A stretch of 47,797 nt of DNA from a virus. Its lineage: Duplodnaviria > Heunggongvirae > Uroviricota > Caudoviricetes. The notes beneath the pieces were generated by a model. The model did no database searches. It saw only the letters and a program-made list of their open reading frames with translations, and was not told the origin of the DNA. The stretch lies in IMG/VR virus record IMGVR_UViG_2571042438_000008; one strand, given 5' to 3'. Below, in pieces: positions 12,491 to 32,449 of the stretch. Position 1 is the first letter of the stretch; every line of letters begins with the position of its first letter. Position numbers and translations under genes: made by a program.

Positions 12491-12739
12491 TTACTTCTGG
12501 TTGTATTGAGCCTTGAGTAACTCAAAAGACTTTGTCAGCACTTCTTTCAATGACATATCCATTGAGCTGGCGAACGTTTTGTACTCGCGTTTAAATTCAG
12601 GGTCGACGTTAAACGCCATTTGTGCCCCACCTGATTTGGTTCTGGTTGGCGTTTCAGTCGGGTCGAAAACCTGCGGTTGTTCGATCGATGGCGGTACGCC
12701 TTTGCTGTTCTTCTTTGGTGGTTTTGATGGTGCGGCCAT
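12491..12739 (-). CDS. Small partition/centromere-binding protein, ParG/omega-like (disordered N-terminal tail + RHH-like C-terminus)
   Basis: 82 aa, directly downstream of parA. The C-terminus MAFNVDPEFKREYKTFASSMDMSLKEVLTKSFELLKAQ has a beta-alpha-alpha pattern. Its size and position fit type Ib par systems. Confidence 0.6.
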   Translation of the reverse strand: MAAPSKPPKKNSKGVPPSIEQPQVFDPTETPTRTKSGGAQMAFNVDPEFKREYKTFASSMDMSLKEVLTKSFELLKAQYNQK

Positions 12740-12751
12740 GTGTATCCCCTC

Positions 12752-12786
12752 TTATATAAATCTATAAAACTATAATTATATATTAT
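12752..12786. repeat. AT box (TTATATAAATCTATAAAACTATAATTATATATTAT) between parA and the parG-like gene
   Basis: Member of the dispersed AT-box family built from TATAATTATA and ATAAATCTATA words. Confidence 0.7.
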
Positions 12787-13451
12787 GCGGCAGTAGTCAG
12801 AGCCTCAAGCTGGTTGATAATCCCCTGAATAACGTCGTCTGCCTTTTTGCGTGGCGCAACGTATGAGCACTCAATGAGGCTTAAGCCCTTATCCTGAGCT
12901 TTGCTCAGAGCTGGCTTGTGGGGAATGTACTTATCGACAACAAAGTATGGCGTATTAGCCAGGTACTCTTGGGCTTCAATATAGTCAGCTTCGTTTTCAG
13001 CCGCGCCGGAAAACACCATGCAAATTTTCTTGATTGGTACACCCTTTTTAACGATGCCGTGAGCAGTGTTAACGGTGGTTTCCAGGTCATCGGTAGAGAA
13101 TCGGGTTGGCAAAATAACCATATCCAGAAATTCAGATAGCTTCGGTACTGATTCAGATGCGTAGGCACCGCCATCGACGATAACCAGGTCGTATACTTCT
13201 GATTCGATGATTTTCTGGACTTGTGATGGTGTGCCGCACGGCTGCGCCGCGATTGCTGGTTCGATATTGTTGGCCATTCTGCGTTGTACCCAACGCGTTA
13301 CCGTTCCGTTAAGCACATCCATATCGATCAGGCATACATTCCAGCCAGCCTTTGCATAAGCAACTGCTAAAGCACGGGCAATTGTTGATTTGGTTACGCC
13401 GCCTTTTCCGTTGAAAATACCTACAGAGATAGTCATTTGTCGAGGCTCCAT
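12783..13451 (-). CDS. parA: Partition ATPase ParA (type Ib, deviant Walker A)
   Basis: GKGGVTKST Walker A box. 222 aa with no N-terminal HTH extension. Confidence 0.9.
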   Translation of the reverse strand: MEPRQMTISVGIFNGKGGVTKSTIARALAVAYAKAGWNVCLIDMDVLNGTVTRWVQRRMANNIEPAIAAQPCGTPSQVQKIIESEVYDLVIVDGGAYASESVPKLSEFLDMVILPTRFSTDDLETTVNTAHGIVKKGVPIKKICMVFSGAAENEADYIEAQEYLANTPYFVVDKYIPHKPALSKAQDKGLSLIECSYVAPRKKADDVIQGIINQLEALTTAA

Positions 13452-23199: not shown

Positions 23200-23275
23200 G
23201 GCCCCTTAGCTCAGTGGTTAGAGCAGGCGACTCATAATCGCACGGTCATCGGTTCAAATCCGGTAGGGGCCACCA
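23200..23275 (+). tRNA. tRNA with anticodon CAU, tRNA-Ile2 (ileX-like) rather than Met
   Basis: A 76-nt cloverleaf, GGCCCCTTAGCTCAGTGGTTAGAGCAGGCGACTCATAATCGC..GGTTCAAATCC..GGGGCCACCA, with the anticodon at 23233-23235 and an encoded CCA. The 5-prime half is identical to E. coli ileX as I recall it. The acceptor stem has C4-G69 and C5-G68. Confidence 0.9.
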
Positions 23276-23583: not shown

Positions 23584-24171
23584 ATGGAGGCAATTGCATT
23601 GTTTAATCTGATTTATGCAGATCCCCCCTGGGAATACAAAGATAAGTGTAAGGATGGGAATCGTGGAGCTGGTTTTAAGTATCCAACGATGAAAGCTGAG
23701 GATATTGCTCGTATTCCTGTCTGGCAGCTTGCTAATCCTGAATCGTGTTTGTTGGCCATGTGGTGGGTTCCGACTCAGCCAGAAGAAGCGTTGCTGGTGG
23801 TGAAAGCATGGGGATTCAGGCTTATGACCATGAAGGGCTTCACATGGAACAAATGTGGTAGCCGACAACCAGATAAGCTGGTGATGGGGATGGGGCATAT
23901 GACTCGTGCAAACAGTGAAGATTGCTTGTTTGCGGTAAAAGGCAAATTGCCGACCCGCCTTGATGCGGGGATCATTCAGTCGTTTACATCGCCTCGTCTG
24001 GAGCATTCTCGGAAGCCTGATGTGGTTCGTGACAAGCTGGTAAGGCTGTTAGGTGATGTTCCTCGTATTGAGCTGTTTTCTCGCGGTGATTTACCTGATG
24101 GTTGGCATGGCTGGGGCAACCAGTGCAATGGAGGTATCCAGTTGCATGATGCTCTCTGGCAAGTGGCATAA
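23584..24171 (+). CDS. MT-A70 family DNA N6-adenine methyltransferase
   Basis: DPPW catalytic motif (IYADPPWEY). FKYPTMK and EHSRKPD are typical MT-A70 blocks. Confidence 0.85.
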   Translation: MEAIALFNLIYADPPWEYKDKCKDGNRGAGFKYPTMKAEDIARIPVWQLANPESCLLAMWWVPTQPEEALLVVKAWGFRLMTMKGFTWNKCGSRQPDKLVMGMGHMTRANSEDCLFAVKGKLPTRLDAGIIQSFTSPRLEHSRKPDVVRDKLVRLLGDVPRIELFSRGDLPDGWHGWGNQCNGGIQLHDALWQVA

Positions 24172-25469: not shown

Positions 25470-25499
25470 AGCCTCGCGGTGTCGCGGGGCTTTTATTTT
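25470..25499 (+). terminator. Rho-independent terminator
   Basis: AGCCTCGCG-GTGT-CGCGGGGCT followed by TTTTATTTT. Confidence 0.8.
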
Positions 25500-25591
25500 C
25501 AGGTGATGTTATGGAAAAGAAAGAAGATAAACCGATTGCCATTGGTGCAGAGTCTGTTCCGTTTAAGTTTGAATGATCCCAACTGGTAACA

Positions 25592-25921
25592 ATGCGTATC
25601 AGTGAAGAGTGGGGAGAAGTACAAGCCCGTGCTCAGTATGCAAATGGCGAAAACCAGTATTTGATTCACTATCAGGCGGCTGATGGTCGTGCTACCACAG
25701 AGTGGTTCGGTGAATCGATGTTGATTGCGATGGAAGATGATCGTTATCCAGGCTGCCCTGTTTTTGCCTGTGTTGATTTGCCAGAAGGCGCGGTACTTGA
25801 AGACGACAAAGAAGAATGCTCGTCTGATGGCGAACTTGTCATTACCGGAATCGTTGATGGTAAGCCGGAATACTCTCGTATTGAGGTAAATAACGGCCGC
25901 ATCCGTTTGATCCCTGCGTAA
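25592..25921 (+). CDS. Hypothetical protein
   Basis: 109-aa ORF. Confidence 0.5.
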   Translation: MRISEEWGEVQARAQYANGENQYLIHYQAADGRATTEWFGESMLIAMEDDRYPGCPVFACVDLPEGAVLEDDKEECSSDGELVITGIVDGKPEYSRIEVNNGRIRLIPA

Positions 25922-25974
25922 CGCATTACAGCAGCTCTTGTGCTTATCAGGGGCTGCGATAATGCGCAAACCAA

Positions 25975-26026
25975 AGCTGCCTCATTAACTCCAGCTCGCT
26001 GTGGAGTTAATGCTGGTGGCTTTTTT
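25975..26026 (+). terminator. Long compound hairpin + T6 (terminator)
   Basis: The inner stem is CATTAACTCCA / TGGAGTTAATG (11 bp). An outer wobble-containing stem surrounds it, followed by TTTTTT. Confidence 0.65.
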
Positions 26027-26155
26027 ATTACTGGAAGGTGGGCGACCGCCGTCAGTTGCGACCTGACGACAGTCATTCATACCCACAGGGTGCCGTGGAT
26101 ACAAACCGAGGCCCACTTGCTTGCACAAGCGAGGGGATTTTAGCGGATAAACGGC

Positions 26156-26779
26156 ATGACAAAACATCTTAATGTGGTTTCTTTACCACTTTCTGTGTTG
26201 ATTGGTTATGAAAAGAACGCTCGCACACACTCCGTGGAGCAGGTAGATCAGATTGTTGCCAGCATACAGGAGTACGGATGGACTAATCCGATCCTGATAG
26301 ACGAGAACAACGTTGTAATTGCTGGTCATGGTCGAATTGCTGCGGCCACTCAGTTGGGGATGGATGAGGTTCCCTGCATTGTTCTGGAAGGGCTAACGGA
26401 GAATCAGAAGAAGGCATATCGTCTGGCCGACAACCGTATTCCGCTGAATGCTGGTTGGGATGAAGAGTTGTTAAGCGCGGAGCTTGCAGATCTTGCGGCC
26501 GATGATTTTGCTCTGGACTCAATTGGTTTTACTCAGCGCGAACTGGATAACTTATTGAGTGCGGCGGTCTACGATGACACAGAGGGTATGGATATCCCAT
26601 TTGAGAAGGATGAGGCCAAATCAGGCGTAAAAGTTCAGTACCTGTCATTTGGAGGTCATAAAATCCCGGCAACGGATGAGGAAGCGGATCGTTTTGACTG
26701 CGCGGTGTCTCGTTATGTTGATGATAATGGCAGCTATATCGGATTTGTATCCGCATTGCTGGCTGGGGAGGTGTGCTGA
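26156..26779 (+). CDS. ParB/Srx-fold (ParB-like nuclease domain) protein, paralogue 1
   Basis: KNARTHSVEQVDQIVASIQEYGWTNPILIDENNVVIAGHGRIAAATQLGMDEVPCIVL..QKKAYRLADNRIPLNAGWDEELL. It is a full-length paralogue of 29446..30036. Confidence 0.8.
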   Translation: MTKHLNVVSLPLSVLIGYEKNARTHSVEQVDQIVASIQEYGWTNPILIDENNVVIAGHGRIAAATQLGMDEVPCIVLEGLTENQKKAYRLADNRIPLNAGWDEELLSAELADLAADDFALDSIGFTQRELDNLLSAAVYDDTEGMDIPFEKDEAKSGVKVQYLSFGGHKIPATDEEADRFDCAVSRYVDDNGSYIGFVSALLAGEVC

Positions 26780-28152
26780 TGCTTCACCTCAATTACGACA
26801 TAACGCACCTACGCGGCGCGGAATATAACCCGCGTTTTATCGGTGAGGATGATCTTGCGAGGCTGGCGGAAAGCGTCAGGGAGCTGGGGCTTGTGAAGCC
26901 ATTGATAGTGCGCGGCGATTTGCTGGTGGCGGGACACCAAAGGACGAAGGCGCTACGTAAGTTGGGAATAACGCGTGCTGCGGTGTATGTGTTGCCCTGT
27001 GAAACGACGGTATACGACGAAGTACGGTTTAACCAACTGCATAACGGAACGGATTTTGATAGCGGAGATGAGCGTTGCAGGGTGTCCGGTCTGGAAGATA
27101 AGCATGGTTTTGTTCAGGTATCGGCAAGCCAGATCTCAGGCAATATGCGCGCGAAAATGGCATATGTTCGAAAGAACATAGCGGAACTGGTTATCAAGTA
27201 TGGTCCGTGGGGTGGTTGTGTTGCTACTCAGTCTGGCGAGGTTATTCACTGTGCTCAGTATGCATTAGCAGCGAAGATGACGCGCACACCGCTAACGGTG
27301 TTTGTGATCCCTGATGTTGAGAAGGAAAAATACCAAAGTTATCTGAATAAAACTTATGGTGTATTTGAGTATTCTCATCTGGAGAAAACAACATACATCC
27401 AGACGTATGCGCAGCTTATGCGGTTGCGTAATGGTGGCAGCCTGAAATCAAACCTGTATGAGTCGTTGATCCTCCCGATCATTGCCAAGACGCCAAGAGG
27501 AATTGATTTTGGTTCGGGGCAGGGAGACTACGCGCGAATGCTCAGGGCAAAGGGATATAACCTGCATGATCTCGAGCTTTTCCGCCGTAAGGGCGCTGGA
27601 AACACTCTGGATAGGACCGCAACAAACCGGATGATTGATACGCTGGTGGACGACTTAAAAACGCGAGGGCGTTACGACTACGTGATTTGCGATAGCGTTT
27701 TGAACTCGGTCGATAGTGTCGAGGCTGAATGGTCCGTTCTGACGGTTCTGAAAGGCTTGTGTAAAGCTGGTGGGTCAATATTCTTTTCTGGCCGTAGCCG
27801 TGGAGAGCTGGAAACCGTCCTGAAACAAACACAAGCGGCGAGTTCCAAAAGCCGGCTTTATTTTATTGATCATAACGGTTTTACCGCGTTGTACCGGAAG
27901 GGGCACTGGTTTTACCAGAAGTTTCACTCTGATGATGAAGTGAAGCAGTTGTGTCGTGTACATGGTTTCAGGATTAAGCGGTCAATATTCAACTGTAAGA
28001 GCTGGTATTTGCACGTCATTAACGATGATTCCCTTAGTTGGGCGAGTCTGGAGAAAGCTGTTCGTTTTGAGTTTGAGTTGCCGTTGCCTGGTGGTTCAAC
28101 AATCGGACGATCTGATGATGTGCTGGCGGCTTTCCGGCCGTTGATTAAGTAG
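26779..28152 (+). CDS. Fusion protein: N-terminal ParB/Srx-like domain + C-terminal class I SAM-dependent methyltransferase
   Basis: N-terminus: YNPRFIGEDDLARLAESVRELGLVKPLIVRGDLLVAGHQRTKAL. C-terminus: IDFGSGQGDY (motif I), YDYVICDSVLNSV, GGSIFFSG. No DPPY/NPPY-type DNA-MTase motif is seen. TGATG overlap with the upstream gene (the ORF is open from GTG 26773). Confidence 0.7.
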   Translation: MLHLNYDITHLRGAEYNPRFIGEDDLARLAESVRELGLVKPLIVRGDLLVAGHQRTKALRKLGITRAAVYVLPCETTVYDEVRFNQLHNGTDFDSGDERCRVSGLEDKHGFVQVSASQISGNMRAKMAYVRKNIAELVIKYGPWGGCVATQSGEVIHCAQYALAAKMTRTPLTVFVIPDVEKEKYQSYLNKTYGVFEYSHLEKTTYIQTYAQLMRLRNGGSLKSNLYESLILPIIAKTPRGIDFGSGQGDYARMLRAKGYNLHDLELFRRKGAGNTLDRTATNRMIDTLVDDLKTRGRYDYVICDSVLNSVDSVEAEWSVLTVLKGLCKAGGSIFFSGRSRGELETVLKQTQAASSKSRLYFIDHNGFTALYRKGHWFYQKFHSDDEVKQLCRVHGFRIKRSIFNCKSWYLHVINDDSLSWASLEKAVRFEFELPLPGGSTIGRSDDVLAAFRPLIK

Positions 28153-28168
28153 TGTGTAGGAGGCGCTG

Positions 28169-28888
28169 GTGGCTGACAGAATTGAGATAAAGATGGATTT
28201 TTCTTCTCAGGATATTCAACGACAACTCCAGCGCCTTGAAGAACGCGAATTGCCGTTCGCAATGGCGCTTGCGGCAACCAGAACGGCAAAGGCTTCTCAG
28301 GCTGCGATTAAGAATGAAATTAATCGGGTATTTGACAGGCCCACGCCGTGGATTCAGAACTCTACTTACGTTTTGGCCGCAAAGAAGAGTGATCCTACAG
28401 CCATTGTGTATGCTCGTGAATGGGGAGGAACGCCAGCCCCTGTAACGTTGACTCCGCAAATCGAAGGTGGACAACGACAGTACAAACGCTCAGAAGGGGC
28501 GCTAAGGGCTGGTGGATATTTGCCTAACGGCTGGCAGCTTGCTCCTGGTCCCGGTGCAAAGCTGGACAAATACGGGAATATTTCGCGGGGGCAATTACAG
28601 CAGGTCTTATCTGGCCTAAGAGTTCAGCGAGATGCGCATCAAAATCGCCGTCAGGGCAAGCCTACGGAGTTTTTTGTTGTTCGACCTGGTACAAGTAACC
28701 CGCTTCAACCAGGCGTCTGGCAGCGCGTTGGGCGGCGTCCTACGTTGATCCTTACGTTTATCCAGCAACCTAACTATTCGCAGCGTCTTGATTGGCATGG
28801 CGTGGCGCTGCGTGCTGGTGAGGATGCGTTTGCTGATGAAGTCACAAAGGCTATTGATGACATTCTTTCTAAGACTTTCTCTCGTTAA
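28169..28888 (+). CDS. Hypothetical phage protein
   Basis: 239-aa ORF (GTG start, AGGAGG Shine-Dalgarno). No family recognised with confidence. Confidence 0.6.
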   Translation: MADRIEIKMDFSSQDIQRQLQRLEERELPFAMALAATRTAKASQAAIKNEINRVFDRPTPWIQNSTYVLAAKKSDPTAIVYAREWGGTPAPVTLTPQIEGGQRQYKRSEGALRAGGYLPNGWQLAPGPGAKLDKYGNISRGQLQQVLSGLRVQRDAHQNRRQGKPTEFFVVRPGTSNPLQPGVWQRVGRRPTLILTFIQQPNYSQRLDWHGVALRAGEDAFADEVTKAIDDILSKTFSR

Positions 28889-28939
28889 TCATCGTGTGGT
28901 TGATGGTGTTGTTATGCAGAGTGTATTCACTGTGTTCTG

Positions 28940-29445
28940 TAGCGTCGCTCGCTGGCTGTCTGTGGGTGGGCACGAGCATCGTTTCATCGTCCGGCAGAAT
29001 TGGGTCCTTCTGGCCAAAAGCGTTGGATGCGGGTCATTCGAACCCCGATGTTCGGCTAGCTAAACGTGAAAAAAGTTAGGTTAAAAGTTGCGGTAAAAGA
29101 AATTTACCCATCTCATTGAAAAATATTGGGAAAACGTGATTTTTTGCTGTGCTTGTGATGGTGAAAAGAAAGTAGAGAATTTTCTTTTAGATCATCAAGA
29201 TACGCGCAGATCTTTAACCAATGCAAGGCTGTTTTGATAAAAATCTTTATAAATCATGCAAATACATCCAATCTTTTAACCAAAACACCATCGGAAGATC
29301 CTTTTTACTTATAAAAACTTAATAAAACCAGATAATTATGCTGGTTTGTGTGATTTTTTATGAGTAAAAAGATCGTCATTTTTCTCTTTTAGTATCAATA
29401 AGTTAAACATTTTTCTTTAACCTGTTGTGTTATGGCGGTTAAAAA
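28940..29445. other. ORF-poor region upstream of the packaging genes: candidate cos/pac region
   Basis: A GC-rich ~120 bp is followed by ~380 bp of AT-rich DNA. The AT-rich part has four GATC sites (29190, 29210, 29296, 29371) and three CTTTAACC-like words (about 29212, 29272, 29415). Its position relative to the Nu1-like and GpA-like terminase genes matches lambda cos. Confidence 0.3.
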
Positions 29446-30036
29446 ATGGCTCTAAAAATCGAATATTTACCAGTCGGTAAGCTGCTCAGATATGCCAAAA
29501 ATTCACGGACTCATTCAGATGAGCAAGTTGAACAGTTGGTGAACAGTATCCGTGAGTTCGGTTTCACTAATCCTGTGCTGATCGATGAAAAGAATGAACT
29601 GATTGCGGGGCATGGGCGGCTTGCAGCAGCCGAAATTCTGGAAATGGATAAAGTTCCGGCGATTCGGTTGAGTAACCTTTCTGAAAAACAGAAGAAGGCG
29701 TACAGGATTGCAGATAACAAGCTGGCCTTAAATGCTGGCTGGGATATGCAGCTTCTGGCCGAAGAAGTCAAAGAGTTAATGGATGATGATTTTGATATTG
29801 ATCTGCTTGGGTTTAATGATGCAGAGCTTGACGAAATGTTAAGCGATGAACAGCCGCAGGAAGAAGACGATAATTCTTCCCCTGTTGTTCAAATTAAGTA
29901 CCTGGCTATTGATAAAGAACGTATTCCCGCGACGGATATGGAAATTGCATTGTTGCTGGATGTTTATCGTCAGTACCACGACGCGCATGAAACGCATGAG
30001 GGATTTGTTCAGTATCTTGCTAATGGTTGCAAGTAA
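29446..30036 (+). CDS. ParB/Srx-fold (ParB-like nuclease domain) protein, paralogue 2
   Basis: KNSRTHSDEQVEQLVNSIREFGFTNPVLIDEKNELIAGHGRLAAAEILEMDKVPAIRL..QKKAYRIADNKLALNAGWDMQLL. The stop overlaps the TerS start (TAATG). Confidence 0.8.
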   Translation: MALKIEYLPVGKLLRYAKNSRTHSDEQVEQLVNSIREFGFTNPVLIDEKNELIAGHGRLAAAEILEMDKVPAIRLSNLSEKQKKAYRIADNKLALNAGWDMQLLAEEVKELMDDDFDIDLLGFNDAELDEMLSDEQPQEEDDNSSPVVQIKYLAIDKERIPATDMEIALLLDVYRQYHDAHETHEGFVQYLANGCK

Positions 30037-30587
30037 TGGCCATCGTCAGTAAGTCAGAGTTTGCCCGCCGGAAAGGTATTTCTCCGGCAATGGTTACGAA
30101 GCTCTGTCGTTCCGGTCGCATTCCAGTGCTGAAAAGCGGCAAGCTGGATTTTGATAAAGCCAGTGCGGCTTATGAAGCGAGCCGACAGGTTGGTCGTGAG
30201 GTATCTGCTGAAAATGGAAAAAGAGGGCATGGGATATCTTCGGAACAACCAGAGTTACCCGCTGATGATGCCGGATTAGCTGGTGGTACTTCCGGTGTTG
30301 CGGTGCAATTCAACAAGGCTAAGACCGCAGAAAAAATTTATCAGGCAAAGCTGAAACGCCTTGAATTTGAAGAAAAGGAAGGCTCTCTCATCGCTAAAGA
30401 TGCGGTCAGGGATGATGCATTTCTGGCAGCTAATGAATTGCGTAGCCGCTTATTTAGTATTGCTCCAAGAGCAGCTCCCCGTTGTGAAGGCAAAACAGCC
30501 AGGGAGATCGAACGCATTATTGAAGACGAGATTAATTTTGCGCTTCAGGCGCTCCAGGAATCCCGATTTATTAAGCAGGAAGAATAA
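30036..30587 (+). CDS. Terminase small subunit (Nu1-like wHTH N-terminus)
   Basis: MAIVSKSEFARRKGISPAMVTKLCRSGRIPV resembles the Nu1-type N-terminal DNA-binding domain. The gene is immediately upstream of TerL. Confidence 0.7.
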   Translation: MAIVSKSEFARRKGISPAMVTKLCRSGRIPVLKSGKLDFDKASAAYEASRQVGREVSAENGKRGHGISSEQPELPADDAGLAGGTSGVAVQFNKAKTAEKIYQAKLKRLEFEEKEGSLIAKDAVRDDAFLAANELRSRLFSIAPRAAPRCEGKTAREIERIIEDEINFALQALQESRFIKQEE

Positions 30588-30592
30588 ACCTC

Positions 30593-32449
30593 ATGGGCGA
30601 AACAGTATGGAGCACCGCTTTTTTCCGTGCGCTTCGCCCTAAATCACGGCTAACTGTTTCCGAATGGGCTGATAAGTATCGTCATGTAGCGCCGGGAACG
30701 TCTCCAGAGCCAGGGCCGTGGCGTACAAGCCGAGTGCCATATTTGCGTGAACCAATGGATGTTATTGGTGACGCTGATACAGAAACAGTAGTGATGCAAT
30801 GTAGCTCGCAAATTGGTAAATCCGAATTACAGCTAAATGTTATGGGTTACTTTGCAGATCAGGAGCCATCTCCTCAGTTGATGATTTATCCAACGGTAGA
30901 GGCGGCTGAGGCTTTTTCAAAGGAGCGTATTGATCCGACGTTCAAATATTCCCCTGGTTTGAAACACAAGCTGCATGAAGGGAAAGAGGGGCGCGGTGCA
31001 GCCAAAAAGTCCAGCACGACTATACGTATGAAGCATTACGCTGGTGGATATATAGCACTTGTTGGTGCTAATTCCCCAGCAGGTCTTGCATCCAGGCCAA
31101 TTCGAATACTGTTAGCTGATGAGATTGATCGTTACGGTGTGACGCAGGAGGGCGACCCACTAAAACTAGGTATTCAGCGTACTACCAACTTTCATAATCG
31201 TAAGAAAGTTTTTGTTTCTACTCCTGTTTTGGAGGAAACGAGCAAAATCCACAAGTGGTTTAAGCTCTCCGATCAGCGTTACTACCATGTTCCTTGCCCA
31301 TGTTGTGGCACCATGCAGGTGATGAAATGGTCGCAAGTCAGATGGGATAAGAGCGATTCAGGTGAGGCGTTACCGGAAACGGCCAGATATGAGTGCTGTG
31401 AGTGCGGCGGGATTATGCGCGGATCTGGTAAACCAGACGTTGATTGGTTGGCGAAGGGGGTATGGATAGCTGAACATACTGGAGTTAAAGGTATTGTTGG
31501 TTTTCATATTAACAGTCTTTACTCCCCGTGGGTTGCATTGTCAGAGCTGGTTGAAGAATTTACGGAAGCAACCAGAAACCGCGATAAAAATGGATTAATG
31601 GAGTTTATTAACCTTAAGCTGGGTGAGCCATGGAAAGAGGATGCTAAAGACGATATCGATCCTGAATACTTGTTGCAACGCAGAATAAGGTTTGAAGAGT
31701 TTTTACCAGATGATGTTTTATTGTTAAGTGCTGGTGTTGACGTACAGGACACGTATTTAGTTTGTGAATTGGTCGGTTGGGGAAAAGGTAAGGAGTCATG
31801 GGGGATAGAATATAAAATATTCCCAGGTGATCCCGCACAAGATGTTGTCTGGAAACAACTTGATGAATACTTACTCCGTAGCTGGTCATTCCGTGACGGT
31901 CGAAAATTACAGATTTCTTCCGTTTGTATTGACTCTGGTGGGCATTTTACGACAGAGGTATATCGCTTTACTAAGCCGAGAGAATCAAGGCGAATATACT
32001 CTATCAGGGGGCGTGGTGGGGTAGGTTTACCGTTTATAGGAAAGCCAAGTAATAATAACCGTGTGGGTGCTATGTTGTTTAATTTGGGGGTTGATGATGG
32101 TAAAGGGACCATCATGGCAAGAATTAAACTACATGATCCTGGTCCTGGTTATATGCATTTCCCATTAGATTCTGACAGAGGATATGATACCGAATACTTT
32201 AAAGGATTATTATCAGAGAAGAAAATATTTGAATATAAAAATGGGCAGACAAAAGAAAAGTGGGTAAAAGTCTACGAGCGTAACGAGCCTCTTGATTGCC
32301 GTAACTATGCAACTGCCGCGATGGAAATTCTGAACCCTAATTTTAACTGGCTTGCCGAACAGGAAATGCGAGGTAATGTGTATGTGCAGAACTCGTCAGG
32401 TATACGTAGAAGACGCCGTAGAGTTATAAGTAAAGGCGTAACCATATAG
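30593..32449 (+). CDS. Terminase large subunit, lambda GpA family
   Basis: 618 aa. The N-terminal block LTVSEWADKYRHVAPGTSPEPGPWRTSRVPYLREPMD and a Walker-like SSQIGKSE fit GpA. It is followed by W, portal and protease genes in lambda order. Confidence 0.9.
   Translation: MGETVWSTAFFRALRPKSRLTVSEWADKYRHVAPGTSPEPGPWRTSRVPYLREPMDVIGDADTETVVMQCSSQIGKSELQLNVMGYFADQEPSPQLMIYPTVEAAEAFSKERIDPTFKYSPGLKHKLHEGKEGRGAAKKSSTTIRMKHYAGGYIALVGANSPAGLASRPIRILLADEIDRYGVTQEGDPLKLGIQRTTNFHNRKKVFVSTPVLEETSKIHKWFKLSDQRYYHVPCPCCGTMQVMKWSQVRWDKSDSGEALPETARYECCECGGIMRGSGKPDVDWLAKGVWIAEHTGVKGIVGFHINSLYSPWVALSELVEEFTEATRNRDKNGLMEFINLKLGEPWKEDAKDDIDPEYLLQRRIRFEEFLPDDVLLLSAGVDVQDTYLVCELVGWGKGKESWGIEYKIFPGDPAQDVVWKQLDEYLLRSWSFRDGRKLQISSVCIDSGGHFTTEVYRFTKPRESRRIYSIRGRGGVGLPFIGKPSNNNRVGAMLFNLGVDDGKGTIMARIKLHDPGPGYMHFPLDSDRGYDTEYFKGLLSEKKIFEYKNGQTKEKWVKVYERNEPLDCRNYATAAMEILNPNFNWLAEQEMRGNVYVQNSSGIRRRRRRVISKGVTI

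What the first reader, a model, noticed from the sequence alone, without database searches (positions are those of the whole stretch)
26156..30036. Two paralogous ParB/Srx-fold proteins and a ParB-N::SAM-methyltransferase fusion bracket the presumed packaging site
ORFs 26156..26779 and 29446..30036 are full-length paralogues, with the same GHGR-type ParB-like nuclease core and the same C-terminal ..YL(S/A)..IPATD.. region. The first is translationally coupled to a 458-aa fusion of a third, more divergent ParB-like N-domain (AGHQRTKA) with a class I SAM methyltransferase. That methyltransferase has motif I IDFGSGQG but no DPPY/NPPY-type DNA-MTase motif, so its substrate is open: DNA, RNA, protein or a small molecule. 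The second paralogue is translationally coupled (TAATG) to the Nu1-like small terminase. The two arms are separated by an unknown 239-aa gene and the AT-rich, GATC-rich region. Three ParB-fold domains in 4 kb, in addition to a separate ParA/RHH partition system and a separate MT-A70 methylase at 23584, is not what partition needs. Possible roles include a nuclease or clamp accessory to cos/pac recognition, analogous to HNH helpers of HK97-type terminases. Other options are a self-DNA marking or anti-restriction module, or a CTP-dependent sliding clamp loaded at the AT-rich site.
Basis: partly seen in the sequence, partly recalled or inferred. Interest (0 to 1): 0.68.

Follow-up and report, generated by a model that had tools for sequence, protein, structure and literature searches.

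The report
Phage ParB-partnered methyltransferase cassette beside terminase
Next to the DNA-packaging genes of a 48-kb E. coli phage-plasmid lie a movable two-gene cassette (a small ParB-like protein plus a ParB-ParB'-methyltransferase enzyme of unknown target) and a separate, lineage-fixed ParB-like gene. Neither serves plasmid partition, and the cassette recurs in front of terminase genes in phages of many bacterial phyla.

Summary
A (26156-26779) and D (29446-30036) are 48% identical ParB-fold paralogues. B (26779-28152, 457 aa) is a ParB::class I SAM-methyltransferase fusion with no DPPY-type motif. They flank an AT-rich gap that holds the ends of three phage genome records.

They are not one unit. 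A and B form an obligate pair: 77 of 77 informative viral loci have an A-like gene just upstream of B. The pair is spread over at least seven phyla and usually sits directly in front of terminase genes of several families. It is present or absent among near-identical relatives, so it is an accessory cassette. D stays, coupled to the small terminase, in relatives that lack A-B.

B probably contains a second, degenerate ParB fold. Its methyltransferase domain occurs almost only in this architecture and resembles small-molecule and tRNA methyltransferases, not DNA amino-methyltransferases. About half of the cassettes elsewhere carry a third, unknown Cys/His protein that this window lacks.

The ParB::Methyltransf_23 fusion was already catalogued (PNAS 2025), and one such fusion bound ATP there. 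Its function is unknown.

Best guess: an NTP-gated, late-expressed nucleic-acid (probably DNA) methylation module. Partition and a canonical parS clamp are disfavoured.

The parts
25470..25491 (+). Terminator-like hairpin (9-bp stem, 7 G-C pairs, T-run) at the left edge of the variable cassette
   Evidence: The L090 deletion relative to the window starts just after it: L090 matches window 25477-25572 and then resumes at 28057.
25592..25921 (+). orf109 (phrog_1935, unknown function), lost together with A-B in the L090-type deletion
26156..26779 (+). A: 207-aa ParB-fold protein (phrog_620), the obligate upstream partner of B. It has a ParB N-domain with NxR, GHGR and DN motifs, a helical linker, and a conserved roughly 45-aa C-terminal domain.
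   Evidence: An A-like ORF lies upstream of B in 77 of 77 informative viral loci and in the genome loci.
26779..28152 (+). B: 457-aa ParB - ParB' - class I SAM methyltransferase (phrog_5475). Its start overlaps A's stop (TGATG).
26779..27054 (+). B residues 1-92: ParB N-domain with invariant Y-N-P-R, A-G-H-Q-R and D-E..F-N-Q motifs
   Evidence: hhalign against the A-family N-domain gives E 1e-18.
27106..27348 (+). B residues 110-190: probable second, degenerate ParB/Srx fold, with GxxR replaced by H-C-A-Q-Y
   Evidence: The AF2 secondary-structure order beta-alpha-beta-beta-alpha-beta-alpha is identical to that of the N-domain. hhalign against the A-family N-domain gives E 4.6e-5, probability 68%, 83 columns in register. 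The direct comparison with B's own N-domain is not significant (E 0.14).
27451..28149 (+). B residues 225-457: class I SAM methyltransferase domain. Motif I is IDFGSGQGDY, the invariant acidic residue is E266, and the post-beta4 motif is D305-S-V-L-N-S-V-D312. There is no DPPY/NPPY motif.
   Evidence: The domain is found almost only in this architecture.
28169..28888 (+). C: 239-aa protein (phrog_1924, labelled 'minor tail protein', no Pfam match). It is the last gene before the genome end. Its homologues sit directly upstream of TerS/TerL in other phages.
28889..29445 (.). AT-rich intergenic gap (37% GC) with 4 GATC sites (not significantly enriched) and several short direct and inverted repeats. 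No sigma-70-like promoter or terminator was found in it.
29032..29043 (.). Candidate 12-nt cohesive end GGTCATTCGAAC (cosN-like)
   Evidence: Yersinia phage records vB_YpM_39 and _41 begin at 29032 and vB_YpM_44 begins at 29044. The large terminase is the lambda gpA type. This is inferred from record boundaries, not measured.
29446..30036 (+). D: 196-aa A-family ParB-fold paralogue. Its stop overlaps the TerS ATG (TAATG). It is retained in sister lineages that lack A-B.
30036..30587 (+). Small terminase subunit (phrog_57)
30593..32449 (+). Large terminase, lambda gpA type (GpA_ATPase + GpA_nuclease)

Best explanation
The region holds two separable things, and neither is a partition system.

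(1) A and B are a self-contained, horizontally mobile accessory cassette. A is a short ParB-fold protein of the clade that is normally fused to DNA methylases. B is an enzyme built from an intact NTP-binding ParB domain, a degenerate second ParB-like domain and a dedicated class I SAM methyltransferase.

I infer the following. A and B work as a complex in which NTP binding by the ParB domains (probably ATP) gates or targets the methyltransferase on nucleic acid. The target is most likely phage DNA. The genes are expressed with the late/packaging operon, so genomes would be marked just before encapsidation and protected in the next host. The chemistry is probably not the usual N6-adenine or N4-cytosine reaction, because the catalytic (D/N/S)PP(Y/F) motif is absent.

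(2) D is a paralogue of A that is fixed in this phage lineage between cos and the small terminase. It works without B. It may be an extra A-type subunit when B is present. Its own role at the packaging end is unknown.

Shown: the domain architecture, the obligate A-B pairing, the position in front of terminases, the present/absent polymorphism, and the persistence of D.
Inferred: complex formation, the NTP gate, DNA as substrate, and the protective role.
For: Pairing and spread:
- An A-like ORF lies directly upstream of B in 77 of 77 informative viral loci, overlapping or abutting it in 72.
- The same holds in genomes of Gamma- and Alphaproteobacteria, Bacillota, Planctomycetota, Chloroflexota, Chlorobiaceae and Bacteroidia.
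- B is full length and collinear at 33-62% identity, with dozens of invariant residues in every domain, including motif I and E266.
- The methyltransferase domain searched against 1.84 billion representatives found only 398 hits. Nearly all of the 150 best hits listed are about 460 aa with the match starting near residue 195.

Link to DNA modification:
- A and D match the first roughly 150 residues of ParB-N6/N4 DNA-methylase profiles at E 1e-38 to 1e-52.
- Bona fide ParB_N+N6_N4_Mtase fusions 43-53% identical to D's N-module occupy the same slot before TerS/TerL.

NTP binding:
- The phosphate-binding residues (NxR, the Arg of GxxR, the box III Asn) are conserved in A, B and D.
- D's model matches the CTP-binding N-domains of Noc, PadC, ParB and KorB.
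- Kaljevic et al. list ParB::Methyltransf_23 as phage-enriched, report ATP binding by a ParB::SAM-dependent-methyltransferase fusion, and list an R-to-A control for the phage Methyltransf_23 construct.

Precedent: a ParB homologue without a DNA-binding domain activates a phage DNA thymine dioxygenase on dsDNA.

Position and timing:
- 55 of 67 loci with at least 3.5 kb of downstream sequence have a large terminase 0.5-2.6 kb downstream on the same strand. Pfam on sampled loci shows several terminase families.
- Here the genes lie between the lysis cassette and cos in one transcription direction.

Accessory status:
- L090, 97% identical downstream, lacks window 25573-28056 and keeps a 62-aa remnant of B.
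- In the sister lineage at about 73% nucleotide identity, most loci lack A-B and at least L095 and L110 carry it; all of them keep C-gap-D-TerS-TerL.
- D is 79% identical there, against 88% for TerS and TerL.
Against: - No methylation data exist.
- The methyltransferase fold is closest to small-molecule and tRNA methyltransferases: 3d2l, 1ve3, CcbJ, Trm9, METTL6, at 10-18% identity. It lacks every DNA-methyltransferase signature, so DNA is not the only plausible substrate.
- No DNA-binding domain was identified in A, B or D. The shared C-terminal domain of A and D has no sequence match in Pfam or PDB.
- The ParB hydrolysis residues Q/E are N/H here, so any NTPase cycle differs from ParB's.
- I could not verify that the fusion tested for ATP binding belongs to B's family.
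- D persists without B, so the A-family domain does not need B.
- The second ParB fold in B rests on a single profile comparison (probability 68%) plus secondary-structure order, not on a structural superposition.
- The position in front of terminases would also fit a packaging role.
Confidence: 0.45

Rival explanations
1. B methylates something other than DNA: a host or phage RNA such as tRNA or rRNA, a protein (terminase, capsid or a host factor), a nucleotide bound in the ParB pocket, or a small molecule. A would act as regulator or adaptor.
For: The best structural matches are small-molecule and tRNA methyltransferases. There is no DNA-methyltransferase motif. The Pfam match is the generic Methyltransf_23. 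ParB folds also serve as ATP-binding modules of metabolic enzymes (SerK, Srx), as summarised.
Against: A and D belong to the ParB clade fused to DNA methylases. A tRNA gene lies within about 8 kb in only 4 of 38 dereplicated loci. The fixed place at the head of the packaging operon is hard to explain for a metabolic enzyme.
Confidence: 0.2
2. The ParB-fold proteins, D above all, are accessory factors of DNA packaging. They would bind, bend or nick DNA at cos/pac or assist the small terminase, as HNH proteins assist HK97-type terminases.
For: D lies between the candidate cos end and TerS and is translationally coupled to TerS. It is kept in all relatives of this lineage, with conservation close to that of TerS and TerL. 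ParB-fold genes directly upstream of terminase genes are common. Nicking activity has been reported for a ParB-methylase, as cited.
Against: Phages with the same C-TerS-TerL(gpA) layout have no ParB gene there: phi2LM21, Pben1, MD8. A-B precedes terminases of unrelated families and packaging modes and is dispensable in near-identical relatives. In other phages the same slot holds complete ParB-DNA-methylase fusions. No nuclease motif can be assigned.
Confidence: 0.15
3. The cassette is a moron that acts on the host or on competitors, either as a superinfection-exclusion or defence module or as a host-reprogramming ParB like plasmid HerB/YfjB.
For: It shows present/absent polymorphism in a variable region between the lysis genes and cos. 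A terminator-like hairpin lies just upstream. The third gene of the cassette is sometimes encoded on the opposite strand. There is precedent for non-partition ParB-like proteins on mobile elements.
Against: There is no PADLOC match beyond the ParB part of a methyltransferase profile. No promoter-like site was found ahead of A. In many phages A-B abuts TerS-TerL with no gap. A and D lack the HTH domain that HerB uses.
Confidence: 0.1
4. A and D are canonical CTP-dependent ParB sliding clamps loaded at a parS-like site in the AT-rich gap, serving partition or DNA organisation.
For: ParB N-domain fold with the GxxR arginine. There are repeats in the gap.
Against: There is no HTH domain. Scores are below the TIGR00180 cut-off. 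The hydrolysis residues are replaced. A separate ParA with its own small partner is present. The repeats in the gap are short two-copy matches of the kind expected in AT-rich DNA. About 90 bp of the gap is missing in vB_YpM_44.
Confidence: 0.05

Closest known systems
ParB-CTPase::Methyltransf_23 fusions catalogued by Kaljevic et al., PNAS 2025 (PMC12704722); PHROG family phrog_5475
   Same: Same Pfam architecture, PF02195+PF13489. B matches phrog_5475 over its full length at E 1.6e-265. The fusion is phage- and prophage-enriched, and ATP binding through the P-motif arginine was reported for such a fusion.
   Different: Neither source assigns a function or substrate. From the parts of the paper I read, it does not describe the obligate A-type partner gene, the probable second ParB fold, the third Cys/His gene, or the fixed position before terminases. 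I could not check that the protein tested there is a member of B's family.
ParB_N + N6_N4_Mtase DNA methylases (phrog_498; PADLOC MTase_II PDLC03229; ParB-methylase BCE_0392)
   Same: The first roughly 150 residues of A and D are homologous to the ParB module plus linker of these enzymes, at E 1e-38 to 1e-52. Such fusions sit in the same place before TerS/TerL.
   Different: A and D have no methylase domain. They carry a roughly 45-aa C-terminal domain of unknown fold family instead. B's methyltransferase is a different class I family without the (D/N/S)PP(Y/F) motif.
ParB-dependent phage thymine dioxygenases (5mYOX176/ParB176; PMC13229309)
   Same: A stand-alone ParB homologue with a nucleotide-binding domain and a C-terminal domain but no obvious DNA-binding domain is encoded next to a DNA-modifying enzyme and is needed for its action on dsDNA. 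The A+B layout looks the same.
   Different: The enzyme here is a SAM methyltransferase that carries its own ParB domains. The annotation of a near-identical plasmid lists no dioxygenase or hypermodification genes. No activity has been shown.
Canonical ParB/Noc/KorB CTP-dependent DNA clamps
   Same: The N-domain fold and the phosphate-binding arginine and asparagine are shared. Foldseek hits to Noc, PadC, ParB and KorB have E 3e-6 to 1e-3.
   Different: There is no HTH DNA-binding domain and no recognised C-terminal dimerisation domain. Q/E is replaced by N/H. Scores are below the TIGR00180 cut-off, and the genes are not linked to ParA.
HNH endonucleases adjacent to cos and terminase genes (HK97 gp74 type; see PMC3592412)
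   Same: A small nucleic-acid-enzyme-like gene placed right next to the small terminase and the cos site.
   Different: The fold is different, there is no HNH motif, the terminase is the gpA type, and no role in cos cleavage is shown.

Membership tests
Canonical partition ParB (TIGR00180, ParABS CTPase clamp) | ParB N-terminal (CTPase) fold with the GxxR P-motif arginine | tested here: met
   Pfam ParB_N hits: D is above the cut-off, A and B just below. GHGR and GHQR are present. D's model matches Noc, ParB and KorB N-domains.
Canonical partition ParB (TIGR00180, ParABS CTPase clamp) | Family score above the curated cut-off | tested here: not met
   TIGR00180 scores are 30.3 bits (A), 16.4 (B) and 40.1 (D), against a cut-off of 58.45.
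Canonical partition ParB (TIGR00180, ParABS CTPase clamp) | Helix-turn-helix parS-binding domain and C-terminal dimerisation domain | tested here: not met
   No HTH or ParB C-terminal Pfam hit. D's model has only three short helices, then a disordered linker, then a beta-hairpin plus two helices. The model is of moderate confidence (pLDDT 73.7).
Canonical partition ParB (TIGR00180, ParABS CTPase clamp) | CTP-hydrolysis residues (Q of QPR, E of GERR) | tested here: not met
   Alignments to Spo0J and ParB put N-x-R and G-H-x-R at these positions in A, B and D.
Canonical partition ParB (TIGR00180, ParABS CTPase clamp) | Operon with ParA | tested here: not met
   ParA (12783-13451, minus strand) has its own 82-aa downstream partner and lies 13 kb away.
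ParB-CTPase::Methyltransf_23 fusion (phrog_5475) | PF02195 and PF13489 in one polypeptide of about 460 aa, collinear with the family | tested here: met
   (E 1.6e-265 over positions 1-457 of 458).
ParB-CTPase::Methyltransf_23 fusion (phrog_5475) | NTP (ATP) binding through the P-motif arginine | not testable with these tools
   R55 is invariant. Binding is reported only for a fusion of the same Pfam architecture.
DNA amino-methyltransferases (N6_N4_Mtase, MT-A70, Dam) | Catalytic (D/N/S)PP(Y/F/W/H) motif after strand 4 | tested here: not met
   There is no such motif anywhere in B. The equivalent stretch is D-S-V-L-N-S-V-D.
DNA amino-methyltransferases (N6_N4_Mtase, MT-A70, Dam) | Profile or fold match to a DNA methyltransferase family | tested here: not met
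   Only Methyltransf_23 in Pfam. None of the top 50 Foldseek PDB matches is a DNA methyltransferase. The PADLOC MTase_II match covers only the ParB part.
Class I SAM-dependent methyltransferases | Rossmann-like fold with the GxGxG SAM motif and an acidic residue after strand 2 | tested here: met
   D243-F-G-S-G-Q-G and E266 are invariant. The model has pLDDT 88.8, and 337 PDB matches reach E<=0.001; all 50 listed are SAM-dependent enzymes of the methyltransferase fold.
ParB_N + N6_N4 DNA methylase fusions (phrog_498) | ParB module plus helical linker homologous to the family | tested here: met
   A and D: phrog_498 E 3e-51 and 4e-52; PDLC03229 E 3e-38 and 2e-40, covering profile positions about 7-158.
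ParB_N + N6_N4 DNA methylase fusions (phrog_498) | C-terminal N6_N4_Mtase domain | tested here: not met
   Absent from A, B and D. Present in relatives L111, L114, L115 and L130.
HNH-type terminase accessory proteins | HNH catalytic motif, with a demonstrated role in cos cleavage | tested here: not met
   No HNH Pfam hit in A, B, C or D. The functional part is not testable here.
ParB-dependent 5mYOX DNA hypermodification systems | Neighbouring TET/JBP-type dioxygenase | tested here: not met
   None is listed in the annotation of the near-identical plasmid p142_C, and none was found among the proteins scanned. Not every small ORF was scanned.

The most novel reading that the evidence does not exclude
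A+B, with the Cys/His third protein in about half of the lineages, is a new kind of NTP-gated DNA-modifying enzyme. In this reading a tandem ParB/ParB' module together with a free ParB partner loads a small-molecule-type methyltransferase onto phage DNA. The enzyme then installs a mark other than m6A, m4C or m5C, for example on a ring nitrogen, an oxygen or the backbone. This happens just before packaging and makes the cassette a portable anti-restriction device used by phages of many phyla.
Probability: 0.2. Interest if true: 0.8.

Novelty: new variant of a known kind. Interest (0 to 1): 0.55.

Why it matters
ParB-fold proteins are being recognised as general NTP switches well beyond chromosome segregation. 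The first case of a ParB homologue activating a DNA-modifying enzyme was only just reported.

This window offers a concrete, widespread and experimentally tractable E. coli example: a two- or three-gene module with a dedicated methyltransferase whose target is unknown. Natural plus and minus variants exist on near-identical phage-plasmids. If B modifies DNA, it would define a new DNA methyltransferase class and a new anti-restriction route. If it does not, it would show a ParB-gated enzyme acting on another substrate at the moment of packaging.

It also warns against annotating such genes as 'partition proteins' or 'nucleases' on phage-plasmids.

Tried and rejected
- Partition role: rejected, because a separate ParA system exists, scores are below the cut-off and there is no HTH domain.
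- GATC enrichment in the gap: 4 sites against about 1.5-1.9 expected, P about 0.07. GATC is under-represented in the window as a whole, 133 against 163 expected.
- parS-like repeats in the gap: only short two-copy matches.
- Promoter in the gap or ahead of A: none by consensus scan.
- RHH assignment for the shared C-terminal domain of A and D (beta-hairpin plus two helices in the model): no support from a PDB profile search or from Pfam. Left open.
- Second ParB fold in B against B's own N-domain: not significant, E 0.14. Against the more diverse A-family profile it reaches E 4.6e-5. Kept as probable.
- Stand-alone relatives of B's methyltransferase domain: essentially none in 1.84 billion representatives. 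The short hits look like fragments.
- Defence-system membership: no PADLOC family beyond the ParB part of a methyltransferase profile.
- Link to phage tRNA genes: a tRNA is nearby in only 4 of 38 loci.
- Third cassette gene: no Pfam, PHROG or PDB match, and no copy in the window.
The model from a shallow alignment is only moderate, pLDDT 73.7.
- Literature searches found no functional study of ParB-fold genes next to terminases or of this phage-plasmid group.

Full report
**What the element is.** The window is essentially a whole phage-plasmid of about 48 kb. The 4.6-kb region is at least 99% identical to Escherichia phage vB_EcoM-613R2 and Yersinia phages vB_YpM_39, _41 and _44. It occurs in 74 of 5,426 complete E. 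coli genomes, and 79 of 82 places are on plasmids; those listed are 47-52 kb. The annotation of a 99.9% identical plasmid (p142_C) shows an IncFII-type RepA, a small ParA followed by an 82-aa ORF, a RelE-type toxin, lysis genes, a lambda gpA-type terminase and a contractile tail. Genes from about 14.9 kb to 47.3 kb all run on the + strand. The region of interest lies between the lysis cassette and the head genes.

**Check of the observation.**
- A (26156-26779, 207 aa) and D (29446-30036, 196 aa) are 48% identical over 201 residues, E 7e-62. Both match phrog_620 over their full length.
- B starts at the ATG at 26779, which overlaps A's TGA. It is 457 aa, not 458. D's TAA overlaps the small-terminase ATG.
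- B matches ParB_N and Methyltransf_23. It has motif I IDFGSGQG and no (D/N/S)PP(Y/F/W/H) motif anywhere.
- The gap 28889-29445 is AT-rich.
- The claim that it is GATC-rich is weak: four sites against 1.5-1.9 expected, P about 0.07.
- The packaging site is plausibly there. Two Yersinia phage records begin at window 29032 and the third at 29044. The 12 bases between, GGTCATTCGAAC, look like a cohesive end of the kind a gpA-type terminase makes. This is an inference from record boundaries.

**None of the three proteins is a partition ParB.**
- They score below the TIGR00180 cut-off.
- They have no HTH or ParB C-terminal Pfam domain.
- Alignments to Spo0J and ParB put N-x-R and G-H-x-R where ParB has Q-P-R and G-E-R-R. 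The phosphate-binding arginines and the box III asparagine are kept, but the hydrolysis pair Q/E is replaced.
- ParA sits 13 kb away with its own small partner.

**Anatomy of B.**
- An alignment of 22 family members at 45-69% identity shows invariant residues in every part of the protein.
- The AlphaFold2 model is confident: pLDDT 88.8, pTM 0.85.
- Residues 1-92 are a ParB N-domain.
- Residues 110-190 repeat exactly the same order of secondary-structure elements, beta-alpha-beta-beta-alpha-beta-alpha.
- A profile of residues 99-195 aligns in register over 83 columns with the N-domain profile of the A family (hhalign E 4.6e-5, probability 68%). H-C-A-Q-Y stands where the G-x-x-R motif would be. 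The comparison with B's own N-domain alone was not significant.
- I therefore regard a second, degenerate ParB fold as probable, not proven.
- Residues 225-457 are a class I methyltransferase. Its best PDB matches are uncharacterised, small-molecule and tRNA methyltransferases (3d2l, 1ve3, CcbJ, Trm9, METTL6) at 10-18% identity. None of the top 50 matches is a DNA methyltransferase.
- Searched alone against 1.84 billion representative proteins, this domain found only 398 relatives. Nearly all of the 150 best hits listed are about 460 aa with the match beginning near residue 195. It is a dedicated domain of this architecture.

**Anatomy of A and D.**
- Their first roughly 150 residues match the ParB module plus linker of ParB-N6/N4 DNA methylases: phrog_498 at E about 1e-51, PADLOC MTase_II at E about 1e-38 to 1e-40.
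- Instead of a methylase they end in a conserved domain of about 45 residues, consensus L-x-F-G-x-x-K-I-P-x-T-x-x-E...G-x-x-x-G-F-V-x-x-L-L. A, D and all A-like partners elsewhere share it.
- D's model (pLDDT 73.7, shallow alignment) shows the ParB N-domain, three short helices, a disordered acidic linker and a beta-hairpin plus two helices.
- Its best PDB matches are the CTP-binding domains of Noc, PadC, ParB, pNOB8 ParB and KorB.
- The C-terminal domain resembles a ribbon-helix-helix pattern by eye. Neither a PDB profile search nor Pfam supports any assignment.

**A and B are an obligate pair placed in front of terminases.**
- Eighty viral contigs encode a relative of B, at 33-100% identity.
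- In all 77 with sequence upstream, an A-like ORF lies directly upstream on the same strand. It overlaps or abuts B in 72.
- In 55 of the 67 loci with at least 3.5 kb downstream, a large terminase follows within 0.5-2.6 kb.
- Pfam shows these terminases belong to different families: gpA, Terminase_6, Terminase_3.
- An independent sample from GTDB genomes repeats the A-B adjacency in Gamma- and Alphaproteobacteria, Bacillota, Planctomycetota, Chloroflexota, Chlorobiaceae and Bacteroidia.
- Some genomes carry two or three A-like genes before B (Pirellulaceae, Bacteroidaceae). Others carry two or three B genes in a row (Chloroflexota).
- About half of the cassettes have a third gene next to B: 21 of 38 dereplicated viral loci and 19 of 38 genome loci. 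It is sometimes on the opposite strand and encodes a roughly 145-aa protein with invariant His and Cys residues. It has no Pfam, PHROG or PDB match, and the window has no copy.

**A-B and D are separable.**
- A contig 97% identical to the window downstream of B lacks window 25573-28056 (orf109, A and most of B). It keeps a 62-aa remnant of B.
- The left edge of this deletion follows a strong terminator-like hairpin at 25470-25491.
- In a sister lineage at about 73% nucleotide identity, most contigs have C-gap-D-TerS-TerL but no A-B, and at least two (L095, L110) have A-B.
- In that lineage D is 79% identical to the window's D, against 84% for C, 88% for TerS and TerL and 86% for the portal. 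D is therefore maintained without B.
- A-B is an accessory cassette. D is a fixed gene of this packaging block.
- D is not a general part of gpA-type packaging. Sinorhizobium phi2LM21, Paracoccus Pben1 and Pseudomonas MD8 have a C homologue directly before TerS/TerL, or at the very right end of the genome, with no ParB gene.
- In other phages the slot directly before TerS/TerL holds complete ParB_N+N6_N4_Mtase DNA methylases whose ParB modules are 43-53% identical to D.

**What is known.**
- Kaljevic et al. (PNAS 2025, PMC12704722) surveyed the ParB-CTPase fold. They list Methyltransf_23 (PF13489) among the domains fused to it preferentially in phages, call it a predicted DNA methyltransferase, and suggest an anti-defence role.
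- They report ATP binding by a ParB::SAM-dependent-methyltransferase fusion. Their protein list includes an R-to-A control for the phage Methyltransf_23 construct. I could not check that the tested protein belongs to B's family.
- O'Toole et al. (PNAS 2026, PMC13229309) show that a ParB homologue without an obvious DNA-binding domain activates a phage thymine dioxygenase on dsDNA.
- Iyer et al. (PMC5512222) review nuclease and NTPase reports for ParB domains, including a ParB-methylase with nicking activity.
- I found no study of the A-B pair, of its position, or of D.

**Most likely mechanism.** I commit to the following, at about 45% confidence. A and B form an NTP-gated nucleic-acid methylation complex. 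It is expressed with the late operon and most likely marks phage DNA before packaging. The chemistry would differ from N6-adenine or N4-cytosine methylation.
- Shown: the architecture, the pairing, the position, the accessory status, and the kinship of A and D with the ParB modules of DNA methylases.
- Inferred: the complex, the NTP gate, the substrate and the benefit.

The main rival (about 20%) is a non-DNA substrate. The methyltransferase fold allows this. A tRNA gene is nearby in only 4 of 38 loci, which argues against a phage-tRNA target. A packaging-accessory role (about 15%) remains open mainly for D. A moron or defence role (about 10%) and a canonical clamp or partition role (about 5%) are less likely, for the reasons given above.

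**Verdict.** The interpretation that these genes do not serve partition is right. The picture of one three-gene unit bracketing cos is not. The fusion architecture is already catalogued, so this is a new variant of a known kind. The added points are the obligate partner, the probable tandem ParB fold, the third gene, the cross-phylum conservation and the fixed place before terminases. Natural plus and minus variants in E. coli make it directly testable.

Noticed in passing
L019:9189-9635, L036:9398-9865, L026:1358-1789, L048:9419-9883, L141:5382-5819, L143:5936-6376 (minus strand); no copy in the window: A third cassette gene lies next to B in about half of the lineages (21 of 38 viral loci, 19 of 38 genome loci). 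It encodes a roughly 145-aa protein with invariant Y19 W21 H33 C34 Y68 C70 G71 N81 H83 C134 R135 N136 and the motifs HCAxCL, YLCGV and TCRNFQFG. It has no Pfam, PHROG or PDB match. It is sometimes convergent with B.
   Followed up: partly
window 28169-28888; L084:4372-5118, L085:3875-4618, L086:4378-5100: Protein C (phrog_1924, labelled 'minor tail protein', no Pfam match) is always the gene directly before TerS/TerL(gpA), or the last gene at the right genome end, in Sinorhizobium, Paracoccus and Pseudomonas phages. The tail annotation looks doubtful, and a role tied to cos or packaging is possible.
   Followed up: partly
window 29032-29043: GGTCATTCGAAC is the 12-nt offset between the starts of three independently deposited Yersinia phage records. 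It is a candidate cohesive end for the gpA-type terminase.
   Followed up: partly
window 29044-29445 compared with L137 (OR545055.1 1-1600): In vB_YpM_44, D starts 312 nt after the record start instead of the 402 nt expected. About 90 bp of the AT-rich gap is therefore missing in a phage that was isolated and propagated.
   Followed up: no
window 23584-24171: The stand-alone MT-A70 methylase matches the C-terminal part of phrog_21315 (positions 238-407 of 415). A and D match that family's N-terminal part (28-94), so ParB::MT-A70 fusions exist and a split partnership with D or A is conceivable. The gene is frameshifted in plasmid p142_C. It lies in the same variable region as A-B and is absent from the relatives that lack A-B.
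   Followed up: partly
window 23200-23275: The single tRNA gene has a CAT anticodon. ARAGORN and the Yersinia phage record call it tRNA-Met, whereas the RefSeq annotation of p142_C calls it tRNA-Ile. It lies in the variable region between the lysis genes and MT-A70.
   Followed up: no
L151, L154-L157 (Chloroflexota); L149, L158 (Pirellulaceae); L168, L169 (Bacteroidaceae): Two or three B paralogues occur in tandem in Chloroflexota genomes. Two or three A-like genes lie in a row before B in Planctomycetota and Bacteroidaceae. Multiple ParB paralogues around B are therefore a recurring theme.
   Followed up: no
window 12491-12739 (minus strand): The 82-aa ORF downstream of ParA has no Pfam match. 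It has a disordered basic N-terminus and a strand-helix-helix pattern by eye, so it is probably the ParG-like centromere-binding partner.
   Followed up: no
whole window: GATC is under-represented overall: 133 sites against 163 +/- 10 in shuffles, and all 100 shuffles have at least as many as the window.
   Followed up: no
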